In this document: piece after piece, positions 4,914 to 61,800 of the stretch
Layout of the letters: every line of letters starts with the position of its first letter
How positions within the stretch are numbered: the stretch's first letter is position 1
From: Stegostoma tigrinum
Lineage: Eukaryota
Assembly: GCF_030684315.1 (NCBI RefSeq)
Contig: NC_081394.1
Coordinates: 6,244,658-6,308,657, forward strand
Direction: 5' to 3'
DNA length: 64,000 nucleotides
The notes under the pieces: generated by a model
The model's database searches: none
Told to the model about the DNA's origin: nothing
What the model saw: the letters and a program-made list of their open reading frames with translations, nothing else
Position numbers and translations under genes: made by a program

Positions 4914-5150
4914 TCACTTTGGCTGGAATTTGATCTCTGCATGTTCTGTGTCCTTGTCCCTGCGCACAGCCCCGTCTCTGCTGGGCAGCTTTGAGAAGAT
5001 GATATTGTCGTAGAGAAGGTCTTTATTTCCGTTTTGGTGTCTAGCATCTCCTACCACTGCACGAGCAAAGACAGCCCGGGGAGCTGGTGTCTCCCCAACT
5101 CTAGTGGTGTCCCGAGTTGTGTTCTGATGGTCAGTAACCACCAAGTTATC
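4914..5150 (-). pseudogene. A2 terminal cytoplasmic exon with ITIM-like LLYDNI and a mutated ITSM (TEHAEI)
   Basis: tcatag|GAT AAC TTG GTG..., phase 0, open to TGA at 4914. The ancestral acceptor (ctctgtag in the 37.77 kb copy) reads ctctgagg here. Confidence 0.8.
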
Positions 5151-6169
5151 CTATGATCCCCTCAGAGAAATTGAAACAGGAGATGTTCTCACACCATTTA
5201 CTGGCGTGGATAGGTTTAAATTATTGCACAACCTCATAAGAGTCAGTCGAGGATCAGGGGTTTAATCAGGGTTCACCCTTCTCTTTCTTACCTTGAAAAC
5301 TAAAGCTCATTGTTCACAGAGACTGAACATCACAAATACTCCAAGTGACTGAAGGGCTTCATTTATTGAACTGTAGTCATTGATGTAATGTAGGAAGTAT
5401 AGCAGTGAATTTGCACACAGCAAATCTCCCGACAACAGTATTAGAATAACTAACATCACATTTTTAATGGCTGTTTTGTTTGACGGAGATAGCGGAAGGC
5501 CCCAGACACTGAGGAGAACAGCTCCCCGCTTCTCTTTCAAATCATGGCCATGGGTCTTTTATCACCCTCCCAGAGGGCAGACGGTGCGGCTTAATGTGCC
5601 ATCTGAAAAATGGCATCTTCGACACTGCAGAGCTCTGTTAAAGGAATGGAAATGAAGATATTCTCACAATTTGCTGGCACATTTGGGGGAAGTTGCTGCG
5701 CAGCCTCATGAGTGTTATACACAGTTCAGTGAATTTAACTTTTTCCACCCACACCTCCCCTCTCCCTGTATCTGTCTGTCATACCGCGTGTCATTTCTCT
5801 CTCCACTTTCTAGTCTCTAACCTTTCTCACCCTTGAGTTACAGTGTCATAGTTTGTGTATCAAATTTGGATTTGAGTTCTCTTCTTGACTCAAATGGTAC
5901 ATTCCAAACACCTTCAGAGCCAGCATCTTTTAGAAGTGTATTCAATGCTATAGTGTCGGACGTGCAGCTGTGGTTCATGCACAGAAAGATTCCACAGCAG
6001 CAACACAATAAACAGTTGACACCAAACTTATGAACAATAAAATAAAGAACTGGAGATGCTGTAATTCTGAAACAATAAAAGAAATTGCTCAAAACTCAGC
6101 GAGTCTGAGAGGCTCTGGGAAAAGAAAGCGGCTTACATTTTGAGTCCATGACCCTTACTCAGAATGGGG

Positions 6170-6729: not shown

Positions 6730-6865
6730 CACAGTTTGGACAGAATCTGATCTGTGCATATTCTGTGTCCTCGTCCCTGTGCACAGTCAAATCACTGGGC
6801 ACCTTCAAAATGGTGATGGTGGTGGGGAGAAAGGTCTTGGATTTGTAAATTGCAACATGTCCCAC
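6730..6865 (-). pseudogene. Second, degenerate copy of the ITIM/ITSM terminal exon directly behind the A2 cytoplasmic exon
   Basis: KVPSDLTVHRDEDTEYAQIRF aligns with KLPSRDGAVRRDKDTEHAEIKF of the terminal exon; 1-nt insertion at caagacctttctc. Confidence 0.75.
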
Positions 6866-6917
6866 TGACTAAACGCTGAGCGTAAAGCTTTGGAGTGAGT
6901 GCAAACTGCTTCTGTAC

Positions 6918-6999
6918 CTGGTGTCTCACAGAGAGTTGACTGTCGGTCGGTGCATTCTCATTGGTCTTTGCAGCTGCCTCCTCAGCCGCTGTCTTCCTC
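6918..6999 (-). pseudogene. A2 membrane-proximal cytoplasmic exon
   Basis: NAGNAG acceptor tatagcag|G AGG AAG (phase 2, matches the TM exon); RKTAAEEAAAKTNENAPTDSQLSVRHQ; donor CAG|gtacag (phase 0, matches the terminal exon). Confidence 0.75.
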
Positions 7000-7314
7000 C
7001 TGCTATAACACAATATCACAGTGTGGTTATTGTAAATGAGGGAGTCAGTGCAGCACAGATACAGTTACATGTCTGGACGTTCTGTTGAAATGTGCTTTCA
7101 CTTCCCAAACAGGCTACATATTCCAGATCAAAACAAACCATGGTTTCTCATGTGGACACACAGCAATGGAAGGCCCACTCTGGATCAGAGGGACATGGGG
7201 GCCACATACAGAAGGAGTGTCTGGTCCCTCACCCCATAGGTACAGTCCCAAACTGAACTAATGAAAGTGGAAGCAAATATTCAGAGTAAAATTGAAAGAA
7301 GCATTTACACTTAC

Positions 7315-7413
7315 TTTTGCGCACACCGTAAGATGAAGATTCCAGCCAGGAAAGCAGTCAACATGATTCCAGCTGAGACCAATCCTACTGCCCATTCATT
7401 GCAGTCTCTCTCT
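7315..7413 (-). pseudogene. A2 transmembrane exon (uncharged TM)
   Basis: tttttacag|...ERDCNEWAVGLVSAGIMLTAFLAGIFILRCAQK|gtaagt. The (AG)n run at the acceptor puts it out of the expected phase 1 unless the acceptor slips by 2 nt. Confidence 0.8.
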
Positions 7414-8354: not shown

Positions 8355-8474
8355 ATGAACAGAACAAGTTCCAACAATGAGCTGTGGTCGGAGATTCCTC
8401 ACGTTACATACAGGAAGACTGGGTAGAAAATGAACATAGAGCAGTGGAGAGCTCCATAACCATCACTGTACAGT
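8355..8474 (+). pseudogene. Inverted fragment of a Siglec-like third Ig (C2) exon
   Basis: MNRTSSNNELWSEIPHVTYRKTG/VENEHRAVESSITITVQ aligns to gene B exon 63686-63967; DYQC segment deleted; opposite strand to A2. Confidence 0.8.
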
Positions 8475-9524: not shown

Positions 9525-9594
9525 TTTGCACAGTGATAGCTATGGACCCAACAATTGCTCCATGGTCATTCTCTGCTGCACACTGATAGTCTCT
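9525..9594 (-). pseudogene. 3' half of an A2 C2-type Ig exon
   Basis: RDYQCAAENDHGAIVGSIAITVQ|gtgagt; 5' half missing. Confidence 0.8.
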
Positions 9595-11241
9595 ATCCAA
9601 AGTTAAAACTGTTATACAATCAACAATTTATAATTCAACTGATTTTCTAATTTCCTAAATTAACATAAGGTAAATATGGATAATAGTGAGTGTGGGGTTA
9701 CTATGGCAGCCAGAGGTGTATTTTGTTCATTTTTTTTATGAAGAGGGGTTGAAAAAGAGATTCCAAGCAGTGTGCTCCAAGCCAACAAAATGCACAGCTT
9801 TCGAAATGTTTTTCTTTTAATATTGTAACAATAGAAGTGGCATGGAAGTGTGAAGTCAGGATCCCACAGAACCAGGATCTTAGCTTAACTTTCAGTAGCT
9901 GTCGGAATTTGGAAGCTGCTATACTTCTCTCCCTGCTACAGCAAAACCCCTGAATTATCTCTTTCTCTCAGAGTTTCCTCTTGATGTTCTGAAGGAGAAA
10001 ATTGCATGTGAGACAATGCATTTTACTGAATTTGTCTTTTCCAAGCACAAGTTTGTGGGAAGTTTCTGCATTGGAACAGTTACAGTTTAGTAATTAAATA
10101 TTCCATTGTTCTGTTGAATAGAGTTAAGTTATTCTAATTCATCTTTCTTTCGACAGTATTTAACTATGTGTGTAAGAGTAATGTATGTTTTGCTTCAAGC
10201 TTGGTAGCTCAACTAATTGCATCTGGGACAAAATGCATTACATTTGCCTTTAAGAGTAATAAAAAATTGGCACATAGACTATTTTCTGAATATTTCGGTC
10301 AGACATAAGTAATTCTGAGATTGTTCAGTATTGCTCAATTGAAACCTAGTGTGCAGCATATCTGTATCAGATGTCAGTTTGGCCACAGCGAGGGCCATTG
10401 TGCACAGTTCTGAAAACAACATGACAGGGCGGATGTGATCAAACTGGAGAAGGTGCAGAGGGGATTTACCAGGATGTTGCCTGGGCTGGAGAGTTTCAGG
10501 CATGAAAAATTGATTGGATTGACTGGGGTTGTTTTCCCTTCAGGCAGAGCAGACAAAGGCAGCGGGGGTGGGGGGGGGGGGCGGTGGAGGTGGACATCAT
10601 TGAGATGTAAACAGTTGGTACAGGAAGATACTCCTATATTTTAATTTATTCATATAATTTTTCATCAGGGATGAGGGTGATGCTTGTTAGGCCAGCTATG
10701 AATGCCCATCCCTAATTGCCAAGAAGGCATTTAAGATTCAGCCACATTGCTGTGTGTTTGGAATCAAATGTAGGCCACACCAGGAAAGCACCACAGTTTT
10801 CCTCCCTAAAAACCCTGGGTTTTTCGTACAATTGACGGTGGATTCATGGTCATCATTAGACACGTAACGCCACATTCTTTATTGAATTCATATTCCCTAT
10901 CTGTGAGATTCGAACCCAGGTCCCCAGAACATTACTTGGGTCTCCACATCAACAGTCCAGCAATAATACTGCTTGGTCATTGCTTTCCTGACCACATTGT
11001 CATAACAGTGTCATAACATAACACTGAAGAGCTATTTAGATGTGCATTGTTTATTCCAAAGAGCACATTGCTTTGGTTAAGTGCTGGATAAAGGGATTAT
11101 AACAGTTAGAGTTTGTTTCTGTTTAGTACAGGCTCAATGGGCAGTAGGGACTTTCCACTTATTTAGATCTCTGGGATTTGGGGTTTTTTTTGCTGTTCAG
11201 TTAATGATGTACAACTTTGAATGAAGGATAGTCATACTTAC

Positions 11242-11413
11242 GTTGTAGTGACAGCTGAGTTACAGTGTTTGACTGATTCACGTACGGCTGTAGGAGTGTC
11301 ACAGGTTAAGGCAGGAGCAGTTCCACTGCACGCTTTGTTGAAGTTGCAGCTTAGGCTCACACGCTTTCCTGCGATAATTTCCTCCGGTAATATTATCGGA
11401 TTATCTGTGATGT
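11242..11413 (-). pseudogene. A2 second Ig (C2) exon with internal deletion
   Basis: gtgttag|AC ATC...DITDNPIILPEEIIAGKRVSLSCNFNKACSGTAPALTC(W->C)DTP...; more than 100 nt missing relative to 25807-26105; donor gtaagt retained. Confidence 0.85.
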
Positions 11414-11949
11414 CTAACACACATAGGATGGATCCTTTTATACAAATATTAGGTGGAATATCAGCTCAAATGGAAATCACACTCCTAGGAGAGCAAGTCC
11501 GGTTACCAGGATGATCTCAGATTTGACGGTTAGAAATGAGGCTGGATGATGACACCCTCAGTGTAGTCCCACCACTCCCTTGGTCACAACATGAAATAAA
11601 AATACCTTTCCTCAGTTACTAAATTTTCCAATTAAGTCCTTTATGTACTTTACATTGAAAGCAGCAGATTTATTCTGCCCTTTATATGTGTCCTGGCTTT
11701 GTACGCATTTTCACTTGGTGCCATTCTTGTACCAGTTCCCGATCTCCTTGCGCACCATTTCAAGTTCAGTAACCGTCCAGTGTCTTCCCGAGAGCCTCAA
11801 TTGAGCCTGACCCCACCACTCTTTCACTTGGTGCATTGCAGACGCATTCTACTCACTGCGGGGAAAAGTAAGGCTTTTCGCATTCTCACGTTTGCTTCTT
11901 TTGCAAAACTGTAAAACTGTAACCTCTAGTTGTTCATTCTTTCATGATC

Positions 11950-13675: not shown

Positions 13676-14007
13676 CTAAAACATCAAGATGGGTTTGAGG
13701 AAAGTGAATGAATTTCTTTTTGTTATTGAATTCAACTCTGAAAAAAAAATGTTGATTATTATCAGGGGAAGAGTTTCTATCTCACAGGTTTCCAGACAGC
13801 TGGGTCTGATGGTGGAACTATATTGATGTGTGACTGCGATCCTTGGAATGAAAGTTTATGAATGATGCTCCCTGATTCTTATTACTGAACCAGTTTCCAT
13901 CTTGTAGTTAGTTTGCAGATGTGAAGGATAGTTGTAACAACATGGAATGTTTGTGCACAGGGACCTTCCTATACTGTCATCGCACCTGACACCATAATGC
14001 TGTAGAC
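13676..14007 (-). pseudogene. A2 V-set exon, decayed
   Basis: ctctccccag|...IPCCYNYPSHL...LSGNL*D...FFRVEFNNKKKFIHFPQTHLDVL|gtgag; paralog of 26802-27167 including flanking intron; essential Arg (FRVE) still visible. Confidence 0.85.
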
Positions 14008-14739
14008 CTGGGGAGAGAAATATCAGTATTTTGCTTTGAATGGCTCGTAGGTCCACTAGACTCGATATTCACTACCTCCACTGTTATACAATGGCTGCAG
14101 TGTGGAAAATCAACAGGACACACAAAGGTCTCCCCAAGGTTGCAAAGCAGATGAAGAGGAAACATGGATACTGGAATGAACAAATTTATCCTACGTAGGC
14201 TCATGGTAATTACAGGCTCAATCTACTTTATAATACAGTTTAATATTCCCAACTTCAATGTTTTTTCACAGTTGTATTTCTTGTGAATGTTGTATATTGA
14301 TGATCCCAGGTGTTCCCCAAAAAAAGGATACATTCTTCCTGAAATCAGTGTGTCAAAACCTTGCAGAAATTTAATGACAAAAATCAGGTCACCTGTCAGC
14401 CTTCTGTTTATGATAGAAAACACTCACTTTGTCAATCCATTCCTCATCCATCTGTGATATTATAAACTTCTGAACTTTAATGACTGTTCATGGATTGAAA
14501 GAATCAACTAAGGCAAACTGATATGTATGGAAGAAGCAGCAGTAACTTTATCTGGAGTAAGCTGTCAAGGCAAAAAACTAACTTATACTGCAAGCAAAAG
14601 CAATTAAGCATGTCTGGGACCACAGAGAGTCGAAGTGGCAGAAACAAAACAGTTTAAACAGCTTCTTAATAATACCATCCCTGGTAGTATAGTGGTTAGT
14701 ATCCCTGCCTATTATACAAGTCCCTGCAGGGATACTCTT

Positions 14740-25806: not shown

Positions 25807-26105
25807 CTATTGGAGAATGAAGGATGTCAGTACTAGTGTCTGCTCTGACAGAACGGGTGGGTGGCTCACTCTGCAGGTGAGAGTTTGTCCCTGGTGTGTG
25901 AGTGTCAGGGCCAGAACAGAAGTATAGGTCAGAGTGGCACCATGCTGAGTTACAGTGCTTGAGACTGATCCACGTACGGCAGTGGGAGAGTCCCAGGTTA
26001 AGGCCGGAGCGGTTCCAGTGCACGTGGTGTTAAACATGGAGCTGAGGTTCACACAGTCACTCGATATAATTTCTGTCGGGAATGTTATGGAGTTAGCTGT
26101 GAAAT
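25807..26105 (-). CDS. A1 second Ig (C2) exon, damaged: B-strand Cys lost, no 3' donor, reads into a stop
   Basis: ctgtctgtcag|AT TTC ACA...DFTANSITFPTEIISSDCVNLSSMFNTTCTGTAPALTWDSP...GQTLTCRVSHPPVLSEQTLVLTSFILQ*; in frame with the V exon. Confidence 0.7.
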
Positions 26106-26801
26106 CTGACAGACAGAGAACGGATTAGTTTCAAAAAATATAACATGAAGCATCAGTTCAAATCATAGTCACAGTGTCCCAAGAGAAAGCACTTCTAGAA
26201 GGATGGTCTCTGAACTGACAGTCTGCAGAAAATTTATCTTATTTCTGAGCTTCTGTCATTCAGCTTTACATATTTATCCCTGTTGACACTGGGATTGCAA
26301 ACATTGGGTGAGGGTGGAAGGGTAGACCAGAGTTTAGAGTGCAATGGCTTACCAACGTCTCAGAGAGCAGAGAGCTATTGATATCACTGCTGTTTGTGGG
26401 AGTTTGCTGTGCTCACGTTGGACGCTGTGACTCCTGCGCCACATCAGTAACTACGTCTCAAGAATTGCTTCATTTCTGTGAGATTCTTTGGGATGCCCTG
26501 TAGTGGTGAAGGACACTATTGTTTTTGTCGCTTTGTAAGATCCTTAAACAGGATTAGAGAGGATGATGCGTGTGGATAGCCTGATAACATTGGTGGACAC
26601 AGTCAATACATTTAATCGCTGGTATTAAAGTAAGAAATAGAGGTTGCTCGAGAACTGAACTGGAAACTATCACCAGGTTATTGAGAACCAGACGCTGTTG
26701 TAACAGGCCATGTTTTGTGTTAATGTCACATGGCACAGTATGTGTTATTTCCCATTGAGCGCTGGATGTGAATTACTGAATAATTATAGCACAGCACTTA
26801 C

Positions 26802-27167
26802 CAGAAATGCGAAGATGGGTTACAGTAAAGTAGCTGTAACTATTTGCATTATCAAATTTTATTCTGCAATAATATAGTCCTGCATCTTCCTGTGTGATGT
26901 TGTTTATACTCAGGGAACAGTCTCCATCTTTTAGGTCTCCAGACAGCTGGGTCCGATGGCGAAATTGAGGCATCTCATTGCTGTGATTCTTGGAGTGGAA
27001 AGCTACTGACCATGTTTCCAATCGCTTTTGATAAAACCAGATTCCGACTCGCGGTTGGTTTGCCAGATGTGAAGGATAACTGTAATGACATGGAATCTGT
27101 GCAGAAGAACCTTCCCACGCTGTCACAACACCTGGAGTGTGGACTTTCACATTTTGAGTCAGTCCAA
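26802..27167 (-). CDS. A1 Siglec-type V-set Ig exon
   Basis: 366 nt, phase 1-1, cag|TT GGA...ATT TCT G|gtaagt; EGSSAQIPCHYSYP, GIWF, FRHRTQLSGDLKDGDCSLSINNITQEDAGLYYCRIKF. Confidence 0.9.
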
Positions 27168-27896
27168 CTGGGGGCAGAGATGCCAGTATTTAGTTCTGGA
27201 TGGCATGTACAAACGCTAAGTTCGGTATCCACTGCCTCTGAGTACAGTGGCTGTAGTGCGAATAATCTTGAGCACACACATGAAACTCCACAAAATATCA
27301 CACTGGCGGAGGGGAATCCTGGATGCAAGCGTGAAGCCAGTTTTCTACTCAACACAGTGTCTAAAAGGTAAACCAATACGGGTACGTTCTGTGATGATTT
27401 ACAGGGCAGCACAATAGATGAGGAGCCCTCAGAAGCCACACTCTTATCACTAACATTATTCACCTAATGAGACACACCTTCCTGGATCTTCATGGTCTTC
27501 ATTTGAAGAACTCTTTTTCAGATGCTTTAGTAATTATAGACTCCCAATCTCATTTGTAATATAGTTTAATATCTCGAACAGGAGGGTGCAGAGTGGAAGA
27601 CAGTTTTATTTATGGGTCGCAGTAAGCAGGCAATCACCTTGAAGACAGTTTGATGACAATGTCTCGGATGGAGACAATGATGAGACTTACCAGGGAGACC
27701 AAGGGTAAAAGGTTTAGTGTGAATCTATTGCAGTGCATTGGATATAGACATAAGAACTGACCATTCAGCTCAGCTAAATGATGCTGGATTTAATGTTCCA
27801 CACCTAACAATAACATGTCTCTCTTCACAATCCAATACTTATGACCCGGAAATTAATCTGTACATTCATTTCTCCAGTGTTTTCATGTCCTCCAGT

Positions 27897-37745: not shown

Positions 37746-37772
37746 AGGTCTTCTGTTTCCATTTCTCTGTAG

Positions 37773-38019
37773 GGTTCGCAGGAGAACATGATGGTTACTG
37801 ACCCTTAGAACACAACCAGGGACACAACTAGAGATGGGGAGACACCAGCTTCCCCAGGATGTCTTTGAGAGTCCAGTGGGAAGAGATGCTGGACAGCAAG
37901 ACAGAACTAAAGACCTTCTCTATGTCAACATCAACATATCAAAGCCACCCGGCAGAGACAGGGCTGTGCACAGGGGTGAGACCAAAGAATATGAAGACAT
38001 CAGATTCCACCCAAAGTGA
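37773..38019 (+). pseudogene. Orphan Siglec-like terminal exon (LLYVNI, KEYEDI) with 3' UTR to ~38380
   Basis: ttctctgtag|GGT TCG CAG...; inverted paralog of 4914-5160; in-frame TAG and 1-nt insertion; no parent exons seen upstream on the plus strand. Confidence 0.85.
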
Positions 38020-51120: not shown

Positions 51121-51813
51121 TGTCATCCTTTCTTTGGAGGTACATTCACCTGGAAGATTCCCAGTGTGGAGGGACTGTGTTCTGAGCAACGACTAAACAG
51201 GTTGGGACTGTGCTCATCTGAGTTTAGAAGAATGAGAGTTGATCTGATTGAAATGTATGGGATTGTTAAGGGGCTTGACATGGTAAATTCTGGGCATATG
51301 TTTCACCTCATGCGACAGTCTGGGACAGAGGGCACAGTCTCAGAATAAAGGGGCACACACTTAAACTCTGATGAGAGAAGAAATTCCTTCTTATGGGGTT
51401 GTGAGTCTTTGGATCTCTTTGCCAGAGAGAGCTGTGGGGGAAGAGTCCTCTTGTATGTTCAACACTGAAATATATTCTTGATCATTCAAAGGATCATGGT
51501 TAATGGACAAAACGCAGGAACGTGGTTGAGAAATATTGGGTCAGCCGTGATTGAATTGAATTACGGAGCAGGCTCGAGGGGGAAAATCACCTGCTCCTGT
51601 TCCTAATACTTGTAGTCTTAATTTTAAAATCAGATTCCAACAATTGATGTCTTTGACACATTTTTACTCACAAGTAAGATCTGAGAATATGGCTCAAGTC
51701 TGCGAGGGCAATGTCTCAAAACAGTTCTGATCTGTCAACAGCTGTCAGAAAAAGGTGAGGTCTGATTAATTCCCTTTTCTTTCAGAAGCTGATGAAATAT
51801 CTGGGAGTGGACA

Positions 51814-51853
51814 ATGATTGGGAAATCTTATGTCCTGCTGTTTCTTCTTCAAG
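51814..51853 (+). CDS. Gene B leader exon (Siglec/MAG-like)
   Basis: ATG ATT GGG AAA TCT TAT GTC CTG CTG TTT CTT CTT CAA G|gtaatg (MIGKSYVLLFLLQ); acceptor ttttctttcag at 51785. Confidence 0.9.
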
Positions 51854-53223: not shown

Positions 53224-53351
53224 NNNNNNNNNNNNNNNNNNNNNNNNNNNNNNNNNNNNNNNNNNNNNNNNNNNNNNNNNNNNNNNNNNNNNNNNNNNNN
53301 NNNNNNNNNNNNNNNNNNNNNNNNNNNNNNNNNNNNNNNNNNNNNNNNNNN
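53224..53351. other. Assembly gap (N run) inside gene B leader-V intron
   Basis: Run of N; contiguity of leader and V exon depends on the scaffold join. Confidence 1.
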
Positions 53352-57398: not shown

Positions 57399-57755
57399 GC
57401 GTGGCAACAGAAGAATGGACCATGACAACTGCAGCTCGGAAGGCTATCAGTGGTTCATGTGTGGTTTTACCCTGTACCTTTGACTTTCCTTCGCACCCTT
57501 ACAAGGCCGTGCAGGGAGCTTGGTTTAAATACTGGTATTACTGGAAATACGCTGTCGTCTACAGCAAAGACCCCAATTATGGGATGCCCACCTTTGTTGG
57601 ACGTACAGGTATAATTGGAGACTTGGAGCAGAAGGATTGCTCCTTGAAAATTAACAACCTCAGGCCTGAAGACAGTGACAACTATTATTTTTATGTGGAT
57701 GTGGAAGGATTCGACGTTTACACCTTCAAAGAACCAGCCCATCTAAAGGTTCTTG
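57399..57755 (+). CDS. Gene B Siglec-type V-set Ig exon
   Basis: 357 nt, phase 1-1, tcactcag|GC GTG...GTT CTT G|gtaagt; EEWTM, SGSCVVLPCTFDFP, GAWFK, FVGRTGIIGDLEQKDCSLKINNLRPEDSDNYYFYVD: Siglec three-Cys pattern. Confidence 0.95.
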
Positions 57756-58534
57756 GTAAGTCCCAGAACATGTGACAGTCCATCAGTTCAGGGGGATATG
57801 GGCCATACCTCTTAGGCTGAAAGTTGTGAGTTCAGGTCTTACTGCAGGAGGTATCAACATGAACTTCAAATGGGTGTGATCCCAGACTGCTGCACTGTTG
57901 GAGGGTCAGTACTGAGGATGTGCCCCACTGTGGGAGGGTCAATACTGAGGGAGTGCCACACTGTCGGAGGGTCAGTGATGAGGGAGTGCCGCACTGTCAG
58001 AGGGTCAGTGCTGAGATAGTGCCACACTGTCAGAGGGGTCAGTACTCAGGGAGTGCCATACTGTTGTTGGGTCAGTACAGAGGGAGTGCTGCACTGTCGG
58101 AGAGTCAATGCTGAGGGAGCACTGCATTATTGACAAATTGGTAGATGAGTCTAATAAGTGCCGATTATGTTGGTTCCCACTTCTGCCACATCACTGAGTG
58201 ATCAGCCATGATCATACTGAATTGTAGGGCAGGTTTGAAGGGCTGACTCCTGTTTTCTAAGTTTCTAAGAGGAGTTGTAATCTGGAACTCGCTGTCTGCA
58301 AGGTGGGGTAGAAGATGTTTTGATCAATCATTCCAAAAGAAAACTGGATGGACACTTGAGGGAAATAAATTCACAGAATGATGGGAAGTGGTCAGGATTG
58401 CTTGGGCATGGATTGGATTGGGCTATTGCCCTTGAGTTTTTAAGAGTCCAGATTCCAATCCCAATACAAAACTATAGAATCAACCCAAATACATTTCCAA
58501 AGAATGCTATCATCTGGCTATTTTCATTTTACAG

Positions 58535-58822
58535 ATGTTCCTGACCGTCCTGAGATGTTACTCCCGAGGGATTTACGGGAAGGGACGTCAGCTTATATAA
58601 TCTGTAAAGCCCTCCACACTTGCCCTGATAACCCTCCCAAACTGACCTGGAGTGAGCTGCCATCTTCCTCAGTCAGTGACACCACAGAGAGCGAGGGCGA
58701 GATTTTTACAGTGCTGACCTTTAACCCTTCACACATACACCACCATCAAACTGTCCGCTGTACTTGTGAATACCCTCAAACCAACCATCGAGTGTTCAAC
58801 TCGGTCACCTTGAGTGTGAAGT
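58535..58822 (+). CDS. Gene B second Ig (C2) exon
   Basis: 288 nt, phase 1-1; DVPDRPEM...IICKALHTCPDNPPKLTW...LTFNPSHIHHHQTVRC; the extra HTCP Cys is the expected partner of the V-set Cys. Confidence 0.95.
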
Positions 58823-61800
58823 GTAAGTTATTGCTGCCTGTGACTGAGATGGTGTCAATCTTGCATTGAATCAGGTATTGGGAAAGGATTTATAAAGGGT
58901 GATCCCAGAACTGACAGGTTACAGCCGTCAGGAGAGACTGAACAGTCTGAGGCTCTTTTCTCTTGAAAAGCGGAAGCTGAGGGGATGACCTTTAAAATTC
59001 TGAAAAGGATGTTGTTCGAGGAGACAGAGAGAAGATGGTTCCATTTGTGGGGAGCGGGGGAGACCAGAATAAGGGTCATCAATAGCAGACAGTCCCAAAT
59101 AAATCCAATGGGGCAATTCAGGAGAAACATCTTCCCTCTAGATAGTGGCTTGAGAATGTGGGACTTGCTGCCCTCGGGAGTTTGCAGGGGGTAATGTAGG
59201 ACTCACTGCGTAAGGAGTTGGGGGAATGTGTGACTTGCTCCCACAGGAAGTGGTCAAATTCAATCGTGTTGATATGATGAAATAGGGGATGCTGGAGAAG
59301 CACACGAATGGGCGAGAGATGCAAGGAGCTGGTGTGAAACAGATTAGAGGGGGCGTTCCTGCTGTGTGGTCTCATTGTAAAGTAATTTGAGAGTCAGGAA
59401 CCAGCACAGGTTAAACATTGAGTGTCTGCAGCTCGTGAGTATATTCAATTCCTATCTAAATCCGGCTGTTATTCCCTGTCCCTAATTGCTCCTTCAGAAG
59501 GTGGCACAGAGCCACCATCTTGAACCGTTGCAGCCCTCATGCTGTAGATGGACCCACAAAGCCCTTAGGCAGGGAATGTCAGGATTTTGACACCAGAGTT
59601 CCTGAAGGAATGGTGATATATTACCAAGACAGAATGGCGAGTATCTTGGGGAACATGTAGCTCCTGCTGTTCCAATTGTCCTTGTGCTTCCAGATGGAAT
59701 GGCTGAGATTTTGGAAGGTTCTGCCTACAAAGCCTTAAGTGACACGGTGACCCAGTGGTTCGCACCGTGTCGGACAGGGGTGGACAAGGTCAGAAGTCAC
59801 ACCATGCCAGGTTATAAACCAGCAGGTTCAATTGAAATCTCAAGCTTTCTGAGTGCTGTCCCTTCAGCAGGTGAAGTGAAGAAAATCACATAGGCACAGA
59901 ATTTATAGGCAGAGAGATGAATATGCAGACAAATCAAAAGATTCAGGCAGATGGTGTGAGTGGAGTGTCGAATAATGAATCTCTGCAGGTGATCAAAAGT
60001 GTCAACAGTGTGAGGAAAGCGTCAACAGCTGAATAGTAGGTGAAGTGGATGATCAATAATCCAATTAATTGAGGCAGAGAGATACAAGAAAAAATGAAGT
60101 GGTGCTGGTGACAAACCAAATGGCTGGAATAACATAATAGGTATAAGAGACACATGCCAGCGGTCTAACTAAAGTAATAAGTACTCCAAAACCATACAAA
60201 CTAATTAAGGTAGTGAGATCATAATAAGGTGATGCTGTCAGAACAGGACAATAAGGAAGGTTTTACAAATATAGATCAGTATGGTGGGGTTATATGTAGC
60301 GTAACATGAACCTGAGATCATGGTTGAGGCCATCATCATGGATGTGCTGGTCAGTTTCTGCTCATCAATTCTACATTGTTGTATATCTCTTTGACTGCTA
60401 AACTGGGAGGGAACATTTCTCTCTGGCAATTGTTGCACTGTATCCATTCATCCATTGAGTTTTTGGGGAGGATGCGGGACTTACATCCACATGAGTGGGG
60501 GAAATAAAGCTCTCACTCCCATGGGAGTGGTTAAGAGAAAGTTGGACTAATTCTCACAAGGAGTAGAAAGGAGAATATGGGACTCATTCTCATAGGGAGT
60601 GGCGCGAATGTGGGCCTCACTTCCACAGAAATATCGGGGGCGGGGGGACGATAGAATGTAAGAAGTGGCCAAGGTGAATCGTGTCAATATATTGAAGTGG
60701 TGGTGGCGGCTGTATATGTGGGATAAAGGAATGGATGGAAATAGTGATAGGAGGAATATAAGGAGGAGTGAGAGAAGGTTTTGAATTTCTGAAACACTGG
60801 CATGGAGCAGAGGATACATTTCTTTCTTGTATTTTATTGTAATGCTGTATTAAAGCATCTGCAGTACAGGGACCAGTGCAGTTTATTGAATGCTAAACAT
60901 GTACCTGTATCCAAGTTAAATTCTTATCCAAATCCTGTAATTAAAAATCACTCCTATGTAGTCATCAACATAATGTGGACGGCACTGGCTGGACCAGTAT
61001 TTACTACCTGTCCCCAATTATCCCCTGAGAAGGTGGTGTTGAGCTGTCTTCTTGAATTACTGCAGTCCATGTGCTATAGGTAACACAATTAAGGGAGGCA
61101 GTCCCAGGATTTTGAAACTGGCAACACTGAAGGTATGGTGATATATTTCCAAGTTGGGATAGTGAGTGACTCGGAGGGCAATACGTCTGTCAGAATGAGA
61201 CCGAAAGTCACGGAGCTGATGTTACCTGGTCAAACCATAACTGTCATTCATGGATTTGAGGTGGAAATCTCCTACTCCTGTGTCGTAACAAACAGCTTGG
61301 ACATCCCAGTTTCTCCCTGTCCAAATTCCAATAGAGTGTGAGCAATTTCACATCTTTTCAGACCTTTAGAATGCTCTAAACACCCTGTAATTTAGTACTG
61401 TGTCATTCAGAGCCTCTAATGCTCTCTCAAATGGGTCCTGGTACATGCATTAAATAGACATTTGTAGAGTTGCAGCAGGTGCTTTGGAATCTAAGTGGGA
61501 TGTTGATGGTTGTTGCAATGTGATTCGGGAATAAAAGTCTGGGAGGTGTTTTCTACAACTGTTTAGGGTGCTGAACATATCTGGGGCACTGTGTGTAGTT
61601 GTGGACTCCTAACTGAAGCAGGAGAGATGGTGGTGTGTGAATATTGTCACTGGTCTAATAATCCAGACATCCTGGCTCATGCTTTGGGAGACACAGGTTC
61701 AACCCTGTGGCAGATGGCAAAAATGTGGAATAAAAAAAATCTTGTGGCCATGCAACCAGTCAATTTTTGTACAAAGCCCTCAGGTTGACGAATGACCTTC

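What the first reader, a model, noticed from the sequence alone, without database searches (positions are those of the whole stretch)
57399..57755. Intact Siglec-like gene lacking the essential arginine, with an aromatic-packed C-C' loop
Seen: the F strand reads YYFYVD (TAT at 57692-57694) where A2 has FFRVE and A1 has YYCRI. Arg->Tyr needs at least two substitutions, and all four coding exons have open frames, matched phases and the full Cys pattern. The C-C' region is WFKYWYYWKY. Established: the F-strand Arg forms the salt bridge to the sialic acid carboxylate, and the C-C' loop sets specificity. Inference: a neofunctionalised receptor for neutral glycans, lipid or protein, or an escape from sialylated pathogens.
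Basis: partly seen in the sequence, partly recalled or inferred. Interest (0 to 1): 0.7.

Follow-up and report, generated by a model that had tools for sequence, protein, structure and literature searches.

The report
Ancient arginine-less shark Siglec-like receptor
This shark immune-type receptor has tyrosine where Siglecs use an arginine to grip sialic acid, shares that change with every close shark and ray relative found, and so likely reads a different, still unidentified signal.

Summary
Exon 57399-57755 encodes a Siglec-fold V domain with Tyr (TAT, 57692-94) at the MAG R118 position. Exons 1-3 equal a zebra-shark RefSeq model (228 of 228 aa), whose tail has ITIM/ITSM-like motifs. One public run holds the spliced V-C2 junction. 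The change is not peculiar to this gene: 24 of 24 V domains of a shark-and-ray clade (15 species, support 100/99) have Tyr, and 21 of 21 full-length ones keep W45, W48, K49 and Y50. The loss therefore predates the shark-skate split (about 237 My). This V domain is more conserved than the next domain, the reverse of Arg-bearing shark paralogs, which argues against ongoing escape from pathogens. Best reading (0.4): a receptor for a conserved non-sialylated host ligand, probably a protein. No ligand was tested. Corrections: A2 is a pseudogene; A1/A2 belong to another clade; a dead fifth exon lies at about 61.2 kb; part of the 'loop' is C strand. Arg loss is known in primates and common in non-mammalian Siglec-like domains (107 of 298 sampled). 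No paper on this clade was found; this scan noted Arg-less shark Siglec-like genes before in other genomes.

The parts
51786..51853 (+). Leader exon (ATG at 51814; signal peptide MIGKSYVLLFLLQ, phase-1 donor)
   Evidence: run X5 contig covers 51785-51854 with 0 differences; exon start inferred from the AG at 51784-85
57399..57755 (+). V-set exon, Siglec-type (C20, C25, C80; no F-strand Cys; W6; R68)
   Evidence: PF07686, PF24518; pLDDT 88.9; Z 18.7 to sialoadhesin, rmsd 1.5 over 112; Z 18.7 to MAG, rmsd 1.7 over 114
57521..57550 (+). WFKYWYYWKY: C strand, short C-C' turn and start of C'; W41, Y44, W45, W48, K49, Y50 invariant in 21 of 21 full-length clade V domains
57692..57694 (+). TAT, Tyr98 of the V domain, at the essential-Arg position (MAG R118)
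   Evidence: same letters in the spliced X5 contig and in genomic contigs of X1
57719..57724 (+). G-strand Y107-T108, equivalents of MAG Y127-T128 that contact the sialic-acid glycerol chain; kept here (Y107 is His in 16 of 21 clade members)
58535..58822 (+). First C2-type exon with HTCP (inter-domain Cys162)
   Evidence: joint 57754-58534 GT..AG in run X5
61204..61336 (+). Dead relic of the clade's third Ig exon: 5' half missing, 3' half frameshifted; absent from the RefSeq model
   Evidence: same domain decayed in whale-shark P0002
63686..63967 (+). Next intact Ig exon (C2b); absent from RefSeq isoform X2, 90% identical to a domain of the whale-shark ortholog

Best explanation
This exon encodes the outer V domain of a spliced shark Siglec-like receptor in which tyrosine replaces the sialic-acid-binding arginine, as in all 24 related shark and ray domains found; it likely binds a conserved non-sialylated host ligand, most likely a protein, on its aromatic face, and would then send an inhibitory signal through predicted ITIM/ITSM motifs. 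Shown: the Tyr, the Siglec fold (predicted model), splicing of V to C2a, one shark-and-ray clade, invariance of Y98/Y96/Y44/W45/W48/K49/Y50/Y54, and the motifs LTYSQL and TDYAQI in the RefSeq model. Inferred: loss of canonical sialoside binding (by analogy with R118A MAG), a protein ligand, its host origin, SHP recruitment and immune-cell expression.
For: Tyr in 24 of 24 distinct clade V domains from 10 shark and 5 batoid species. Clade support 1.0 in FastTree, 0.999 with the site and C-C' columns removed, and 100/100 and 100/99 in IQ-TREE on V+C2a. V is more conserved than C2a (70% vs 65%, 178 of 210 pairs; tree length 2.77 vs 3.22), while in 7 Arg-clade shark proteins it is the reverse (58% vs 71%, 0 of 21 pairs; 3.30 vs 1.34). 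C-C' relative rate 0.88 vs 2.12. No Lys or Arg in residues 96-109 in 22 of 23 domains. MAG R118A loses ganglioside binding (PMC5150538, passages). Siglec-5 binds a protein without sialic acid, recruits SHP, and has the same motif pair (PMC2722167, abstract and introduction). No charged residue in the predicted transmembrane core of P0001. Spliced contig in run X5.
Against: No binding data. The 13 ligand-site positions are not significantly slower than random V positions (share 0.25), and Y46, Y47, D100 and Y107 vary. W6, Y107 and T108, which serve glycan binding in MAG, are kept, and aromatic plus acidic residues also suit a neutral glycan. Invariant K49 and R68 could support Arg-independent sialoside binding. 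The face's net charge differs from Arg-bearing domains mostly by the Arg itself (-1.6 vs -0.9 without it). The tail lies outside the window and rests on an automatic gene model in a tandem cluster where fused models occur (P0020, P0037). The pairwise comparisons are not independent, no dN/dS was computed, and the Arg clade mixes paralogs of unknown age.
Confidence: 0.4

Rival explanations
1. The old pocket was retuned to a neutral glycan or glycolipid: Y98, W45, W48, Y50 and W6 stack on sugar rings, and D100/E102/H107 bind hydroxyls.
For: MAG's other contact positions are kept (W6, Y107/H, T108 in 19 of 21); closest folds are sialoadhesin and MAG; aromatic stacking in lectins is general knowledge (recalled).
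Against: The G-strand aromatic is His in 16 of 21; aromatic GFCC' faces of Ig V domains usually bind proteins (recalled); nothing tested.
Confidence: 0.25
2. It still binds sialosides, but without the canonical Arg: through invariant K49 beside the site, or through R68 at the V/C2 interface as Siglec-6 does with R92.
For: K49 and R68 are invariant in 21 of 21. Siglec-6 binds gangliosides without R122, needing R92 and the inter-domain disulfide (PMC10122656, section 11); both Cys are present here. The match of R68 to Siglec-6 R92 is recalled, not aligned here.
Against: That Arg is conserved in all Siglecs, yet only Siglec-6 showed this binding (same paper); R68 is invariant across the 66-row alignment A2, so it is probably structural.
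Confidence: 0.15
3. The ligand is a conserved microbial or parasite surface molecule, read by a pair: the same V domain on an ITIM/ITSM tail (this gene) and on a YxN tail (paralog P0004); Arg loss began as escape from sialic-acid mimics.
For: Two tail types carry clade V domains, both in zebra shark on contigs of equal length (P0001, P0004); ape Siglec-5/14 lost the Arg together.
Against: No fast change at C-C'; no charged transmembrane residue for an activating adaptor in any of the 19 clade models with a plausible transmembrane helix (20 examined); tails also swap in the Arg clade.
Confidence: 0.1
4. W45-x-x-W48 is a C-mannosylation sequon, and a mannose on W45 fills or gates the former sialic-acid site.
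For: WxxW in 23 of 23 clade domains vs 2 of 271 others; MAG is C-mannosylated on W22 near its site, which dampens binding.
Against: Position +1 is Tyr in 17 of 21 (His 2, Asn 1, Phe 1), and large +1 side chains clash with the enzyme (PMC10154233 and PMC8433626, passages).
Confidence: 0.05
5. The gene is a decaying or ligand-less copy in a birth-and-death cluster.
For: Neighbours A2 and probably A1 are decaying, several tail relics lie in the window, and one internal exon is dead.
Against: Open frames and canonical splice sites, a spliced contig, a 92% identical whale-shark ortholog, and V conserved over about 237 My.
Confidence: 0.05

Closest known systems
MAG / Siglec-4
   Same: Best sequence hit among solved structures (E 2e-16); fold Z 18.7; same Cys pattern, A-strand Trp, G-strand Tyr-Thr and Tyr-rich C-C'.
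   Different: Only about 32% identical; R118 is Tyr; forms a separate clade; sister status not shown (0.70/0.86 in V-only trees, p-AU 0.43, not recovered in V+C2a trees).
Primate Arg-mutant Siglecs: human Siglec-XII (R122C), great-ape Siglec-5/14 (Arg to His; Arg to Tyr in one orangutan SIGLEC14)
   Same: Intact receptor lacking the essential Arg; Siglec-5-like ITIM + ITSM pair.
   Different: Those losses are recent, often polymorphic or on the way to gene loss; this one is fixed across sharks and rays, with a newly invariant aromatic motif.
Siglec-6 non-canonical glycolipid pocket (R92)
   Same: Precedent for binding without the canonical Arg; D-strand Arg and inter-domain Cys pair present.
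   Different: Siglec-6 keeps its canonical Arg and still needs sialic acid; nothing shows this pocket here.
Sialoadhesin / Siglec-1 domain 1
   Same: Top Foldseek hit (TM 0.87, rmsd 1.7); C-C' of the same length.
   Different: 27% identity; the RefSeq model has about 6 Ig domains and a tyrosine-motif tail.

Membership tests
Siglec (strict sense) | N-terminal V-set domain followed by C2-type domains | tested here: met
Siglec (strict sense) | B-E intra-sheet Cys pair and no F-strand Cys | tested here: met
   C25, C80 and F97 align with gecko MAG C43, C101, F118; the bond itself was not observed
Siglec (strict sense) | V-C2 inter-domain Cys pair (MAG C37-C165) | tested here: met
   C20 of V and HTCP Cys162 present; by sequence only
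Siglec (strict sense) | Essential F-strand arginine | tested here: not met
   Tyr in the window and in 24 of 24 clade domains
Siglec (strict sense) | A-strand and G-strand aromatics of the site | tested here: met
   W6 and Y107 in the window; W6 in 21 of 21, position 107 His in 16 of 21
Siglec (strict sense) | Binds sialic acid | not testable with these tools
   needs a binding assay
Inhibitory Siglec-type receptor | Single transmembrane helix plus ITIM and ITSM-like motifs | tested here: inconclusive
   present in RefSeq model P0001, but outside the window and not confirmed by a transcript
MAG orthologue | Groups inside the MAG clade | tested here: not met
   MAG (99/97) and this clade (100/99) are separate; a sister relation is not rejected; no shark MAG was in the set
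Arg-bearing shark Siglec clade (A1/A2 type) | V+C2a group with that clade | tested here: not met
   separate clades; union rejected at p-AU 0.035, marginal
Arg-less Trp clade of bony vertebrates | One clade with it | tested here: inconclusive
   sisters at 68/84 with 29 rows, not with 57 rows nor in V-only trees

The most novel reading that the evidence does not exclude
Arg-less Siglec-fold receptors are an old, undescribed branch of jawed-vertebrate immunity: the shark-and-ray Tyr clade and the Trp clade of teleosts, amphibians and reptiles descend from one receptor that gave up sialic acid before the bony/cartilaginous split and reads a conserved non-sialic self signal through an aromatic face.
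Probability: 0.2. Interest if true: 0.75.

Novelty: new variant of a known kind. Interest (0 to 1): 0.45.

Why it matters
In mammals, loss of the Siglec arginine is read as recent decay or escape. A lineage that has kept a Tyr and a rebuilt aromatic face for about 237 My suggests the Siglec fold can hold a stable job without sialic acid. It offers a clean test pair in one species (Tyr clade vs Arg clade, wild type vs Y98R). It also shows that automatic names (Siglec-10, MAG-like, CD22-like, sialoadhesin-like) hide one shark-and-ray subfamily. The score is held down because Arg loss has precedents, is frequent in non-mammalian Siglec-like domains, and no ligand is known.

Tried and rejected
No whole genome is held for this window, so exons beyond 64000, synteny and codon-level dN/dS could not be examined. 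The structure tool returned no coordinates, so 'another basic residue in the site' was judged from sequence and strand register only. A search for 64-207 aa members found none among 324 candidates. No chimaera member appeared among the named hits or the 25 proteins looked up by name, which is not proof of absence. No run was on record as RNA. Run X24 shows no cover of the V exon and X16/X17/X19 none of C2a; these blanks are no evidence. The X5 contig ends inside C2a, so the exon after C2a was not seen. The ESM Atlas gave only generic CD22/CD33-like V-set clusters. A test that ligand-site positions are slower than the rest of V was not significant. The sister group is unstable: MAG, the Trp clade, or a teleost group. 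C-mannosylation was lowered on the +1 rule. Row P0086_85 was mis-cut and dropped from the Arg-clade comparison (8 rows, 7; same direction). Literature searches for this clade: 0 papers; 3; 8; 30 of 587 listed; 1; 25 of 31 listed; 25 of 468 listed, none containing 'siglec'. None describes it by title or abstract start. Subscription journals are not covered and no supplements were read; a fish or shark Siglec survey there could mention it.

Full report
Observation. The V exon runs 57399-57755 with AG/GT ends and reads YYFYVD, TAT at 57692-57694. Against solved structures the best hits are MAG (E 2e-16) and sialoadhesin (3e-14), and Y98 stands on the Arg of both. Leader, V, C2a and C2b splice to 322 codons without a stop, and the first 228 residues equal XP_048379884.1 of Stegostoma tigrinum. 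The AlphaFold2 model from a 66-row alignment (pLDDT 88.9) matches sialoadhesin (TM 0.87; Z 18.7, rmsd 1.5 over 112 residues) and MAG (Z 18.7, rmsd 1.7 over 114). It places W41-W45 in strand C and K49-Y54 in C', so only Y46-W48 is turn.

The gene is transcribed. Run X5, under the same organism code as the best DNA holders, has a 388-nt contig joining 57754 to 58534 across a GT..AG intron, with no difference and including the TAT codon. It also has a contig on the leader exon. Run X1 shows unspliced contigs over both exons and no such joint among those listed. X5's type is not on record and this is one run, so tissue and level are unknown. A dead exon at 61204-61336 is the remnant of the clade's third Ig domain. 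The neighbouring exons have matching phases, so skipping it keeps the frame, and the RefSeq model lacks it. That model continues beyond the window to an uncharged transmembrane helix and a tail with LTYSQL and TDYAQI, like LHYASL and TEYSEI of Siglec-5 (PMC2722167, abstract and introduction). This part rests on an automatic model; no genome was available to check it.

The change is ancient. Searches found relatives at 60-92% V identity in 15 species: 10 sharks (carpet, mackerel, cat, saw and cow sharks) and 5 batoids. The next hits fall to 40% or less. All 24 distinct V sequences of this group, three of them truncated, have Tyr. The 23 long enough for the tree form one clade (1.0; 0.999 without the site and C-C' columns; 294 of 298 rows used). 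V+C2a trees of chosen subsets (29 and 57 of 170 pairs) give 100/100 and 100/99, with branching largely as the species. Sharks and skates split about 237 My ago (PMC11406177, passages). The sister group is unresolved: MAG in V-only trees (0.70/0.86), the bony-vertebrate Trp clade with 29 rows (68/84), a teleost group with 57 rows (75/42). Union with MAG is not rejected (p-AU 0.43); union with the A1/A2-type clade is, marginally (0.035).

Arg loss itself is common. Of 298 distinct V domains cut from 186 fetched proteins and the window, 191 have Arg and 107 do not (Trp 31, Tyr 29, Lys 12, Gln 11, Gly 10, Ser 7, others 7). The sample is biased toward the query and distant rows may be misaligned. 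In primates, Siglec-XII, Siglec-17 and ape Siglec-5/14 lost it, once to Tyr (PMC6288428 and PMC7379906, passages). [quoted passage not shown]

What is special is the constraint. In 21 full-length clade domains W6, W41, Y44, W45, W48, K49, Y50, Y54, Y96 and Y98 are invariant. Six or more aromatics between W41 and Y54 occur in 23 of 23 clade domains and 3 of 271 others. V is more conserved than C2a (70 vs 65%; sharks vs batoids 65 vs 56%), the reverse of Arg-bearing shark proteins (58 vs 71%, 7 rows after one mis-cut row was dropped). The relative rate at positions 44-50 is 0.88 against 2.12. Against this, a 13-position site set is no slower than random V positions (share 0.25), positions 46, 47, 100 and 107 vary, pairs are not independent, and no dN/dS was run.

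Mechanism. In MAG, R118 salt-bridges the carboxylate, Y65, Y127 and T128 add contacts, and R118A abolishes ganglioside binding (PMC5150538, passages). Here the Arg is Tyr and residues 96-109 hold no Lys or Arg in 22 of 23 domains, so canonical binding is unlikely (inference). A fixed aromatic face on a slowly changing domain points to a ligand that does not change, hence host rather than pathogen. I favour a protein, the usual partner of such Ig faces (recalled) and one with precedent in Siglec-5 (0.4). Rivals are a neutral glycan or glycolipid (0.25), Arg-independent sialoside binding through K49 or R68 as in Siglec-6 (PMC10122656, passages and section 11; 0.15), a conserved microbial ligand read by paired tails (0.1), C-mannose on W45, disfavoured by Tyr at +1 (PMC10154233 and PMC8433626, passages; 0.05), and decay (0.05). 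Which residues face the site was inferred from Ig strand register, not from coordinates.

Comparison and novelty. It has the Siglec architecture and cysteines but fails the defining Arg, so it is filed as Siglec-like. It is neither MAG nor a member of the A1/A2 clade. Seven searches aimed at shark or fish Arg-less Siglecs listed no paper on this clade; closed journals and supplements were not seen. A search of this scan's notes by sequence gave nothing. A search by words gave four notes on Arg-less shark Siglec-like genes in other genomes; three read the loss as old and clade-wide. I saw them after forming my reading, I did not check that they concern the same clade, and they are not independent support. 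Verdict: real, intact, ancient and constrained; a new variant of a known kind with an open ligand; interest 0.45.

Noticed in passing
window 61204-61336 (+): Dead third Ig exon of this gene; the 5' half is missing and the upstream DNA looks like a repeat; the same domain is decayed in the whale-shark ortholog, so the loss may be shared.
   Followed up: partly
window about 13680-14030 (-) and 11241-11426 (-): A2: V exon with stops and a frameshift and a truncated C2, a pseudogene of the Arg clade.
   Followed up: yes
window 26803-27189 (-) and 25825-26118 (-): A1: open V exon with Arg (AGA at 26865) and an extra F-strand Cys (YYCR), but without the inter-domain Cys; its C2 lacks the B-strand Cys. 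Possibly decaying.
   Followed up: partly
window 4923-5183 (-), 6743-7019 (-), 7314-7409 (-), 37746-38007 (+), 8355-8473 (+), 9526-9591 (-): Several tail, transmembrane and C2 exon relics on both strands, some with altered Tyr motifs: a birth-and-death cluster.
   Followed up: no
P0105, P0179, P0047, P0140, P0073, P0116 and kin: A second Arg-less clade (43 V domains, support 0.98; Trp 30, Gly 9, Arg 2, other 2) spans teleosts, frogs, a caecilian, a lizard and a turtle; several members have YxN tails like part of the shark clade.
   Followed up: partly
P0001 and P0004 (zebra shark); P0013/P0019 vs P0015 (lamniform sharks): The same Tyr-type V domain sits on two tail types, ITIM/ITSM-like and multi-YxN, suggesting exon shuffling or paired receptors.
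   Followed up: partly
tree: The Arg-bearing shark clade (A1/A2 type) groups at 99/96 with four proteins that include an elephant-shrew one (P0098) resembling CD33-related Siglecs (label recalled), whereas PMC7226832 (passages) says fish lack inhibitory CD33-related Siglecs.
   Followed up: no
window 53224-53351: Assembly gap (128 N) in the intron between the leader and V exons.
   Followed up: no
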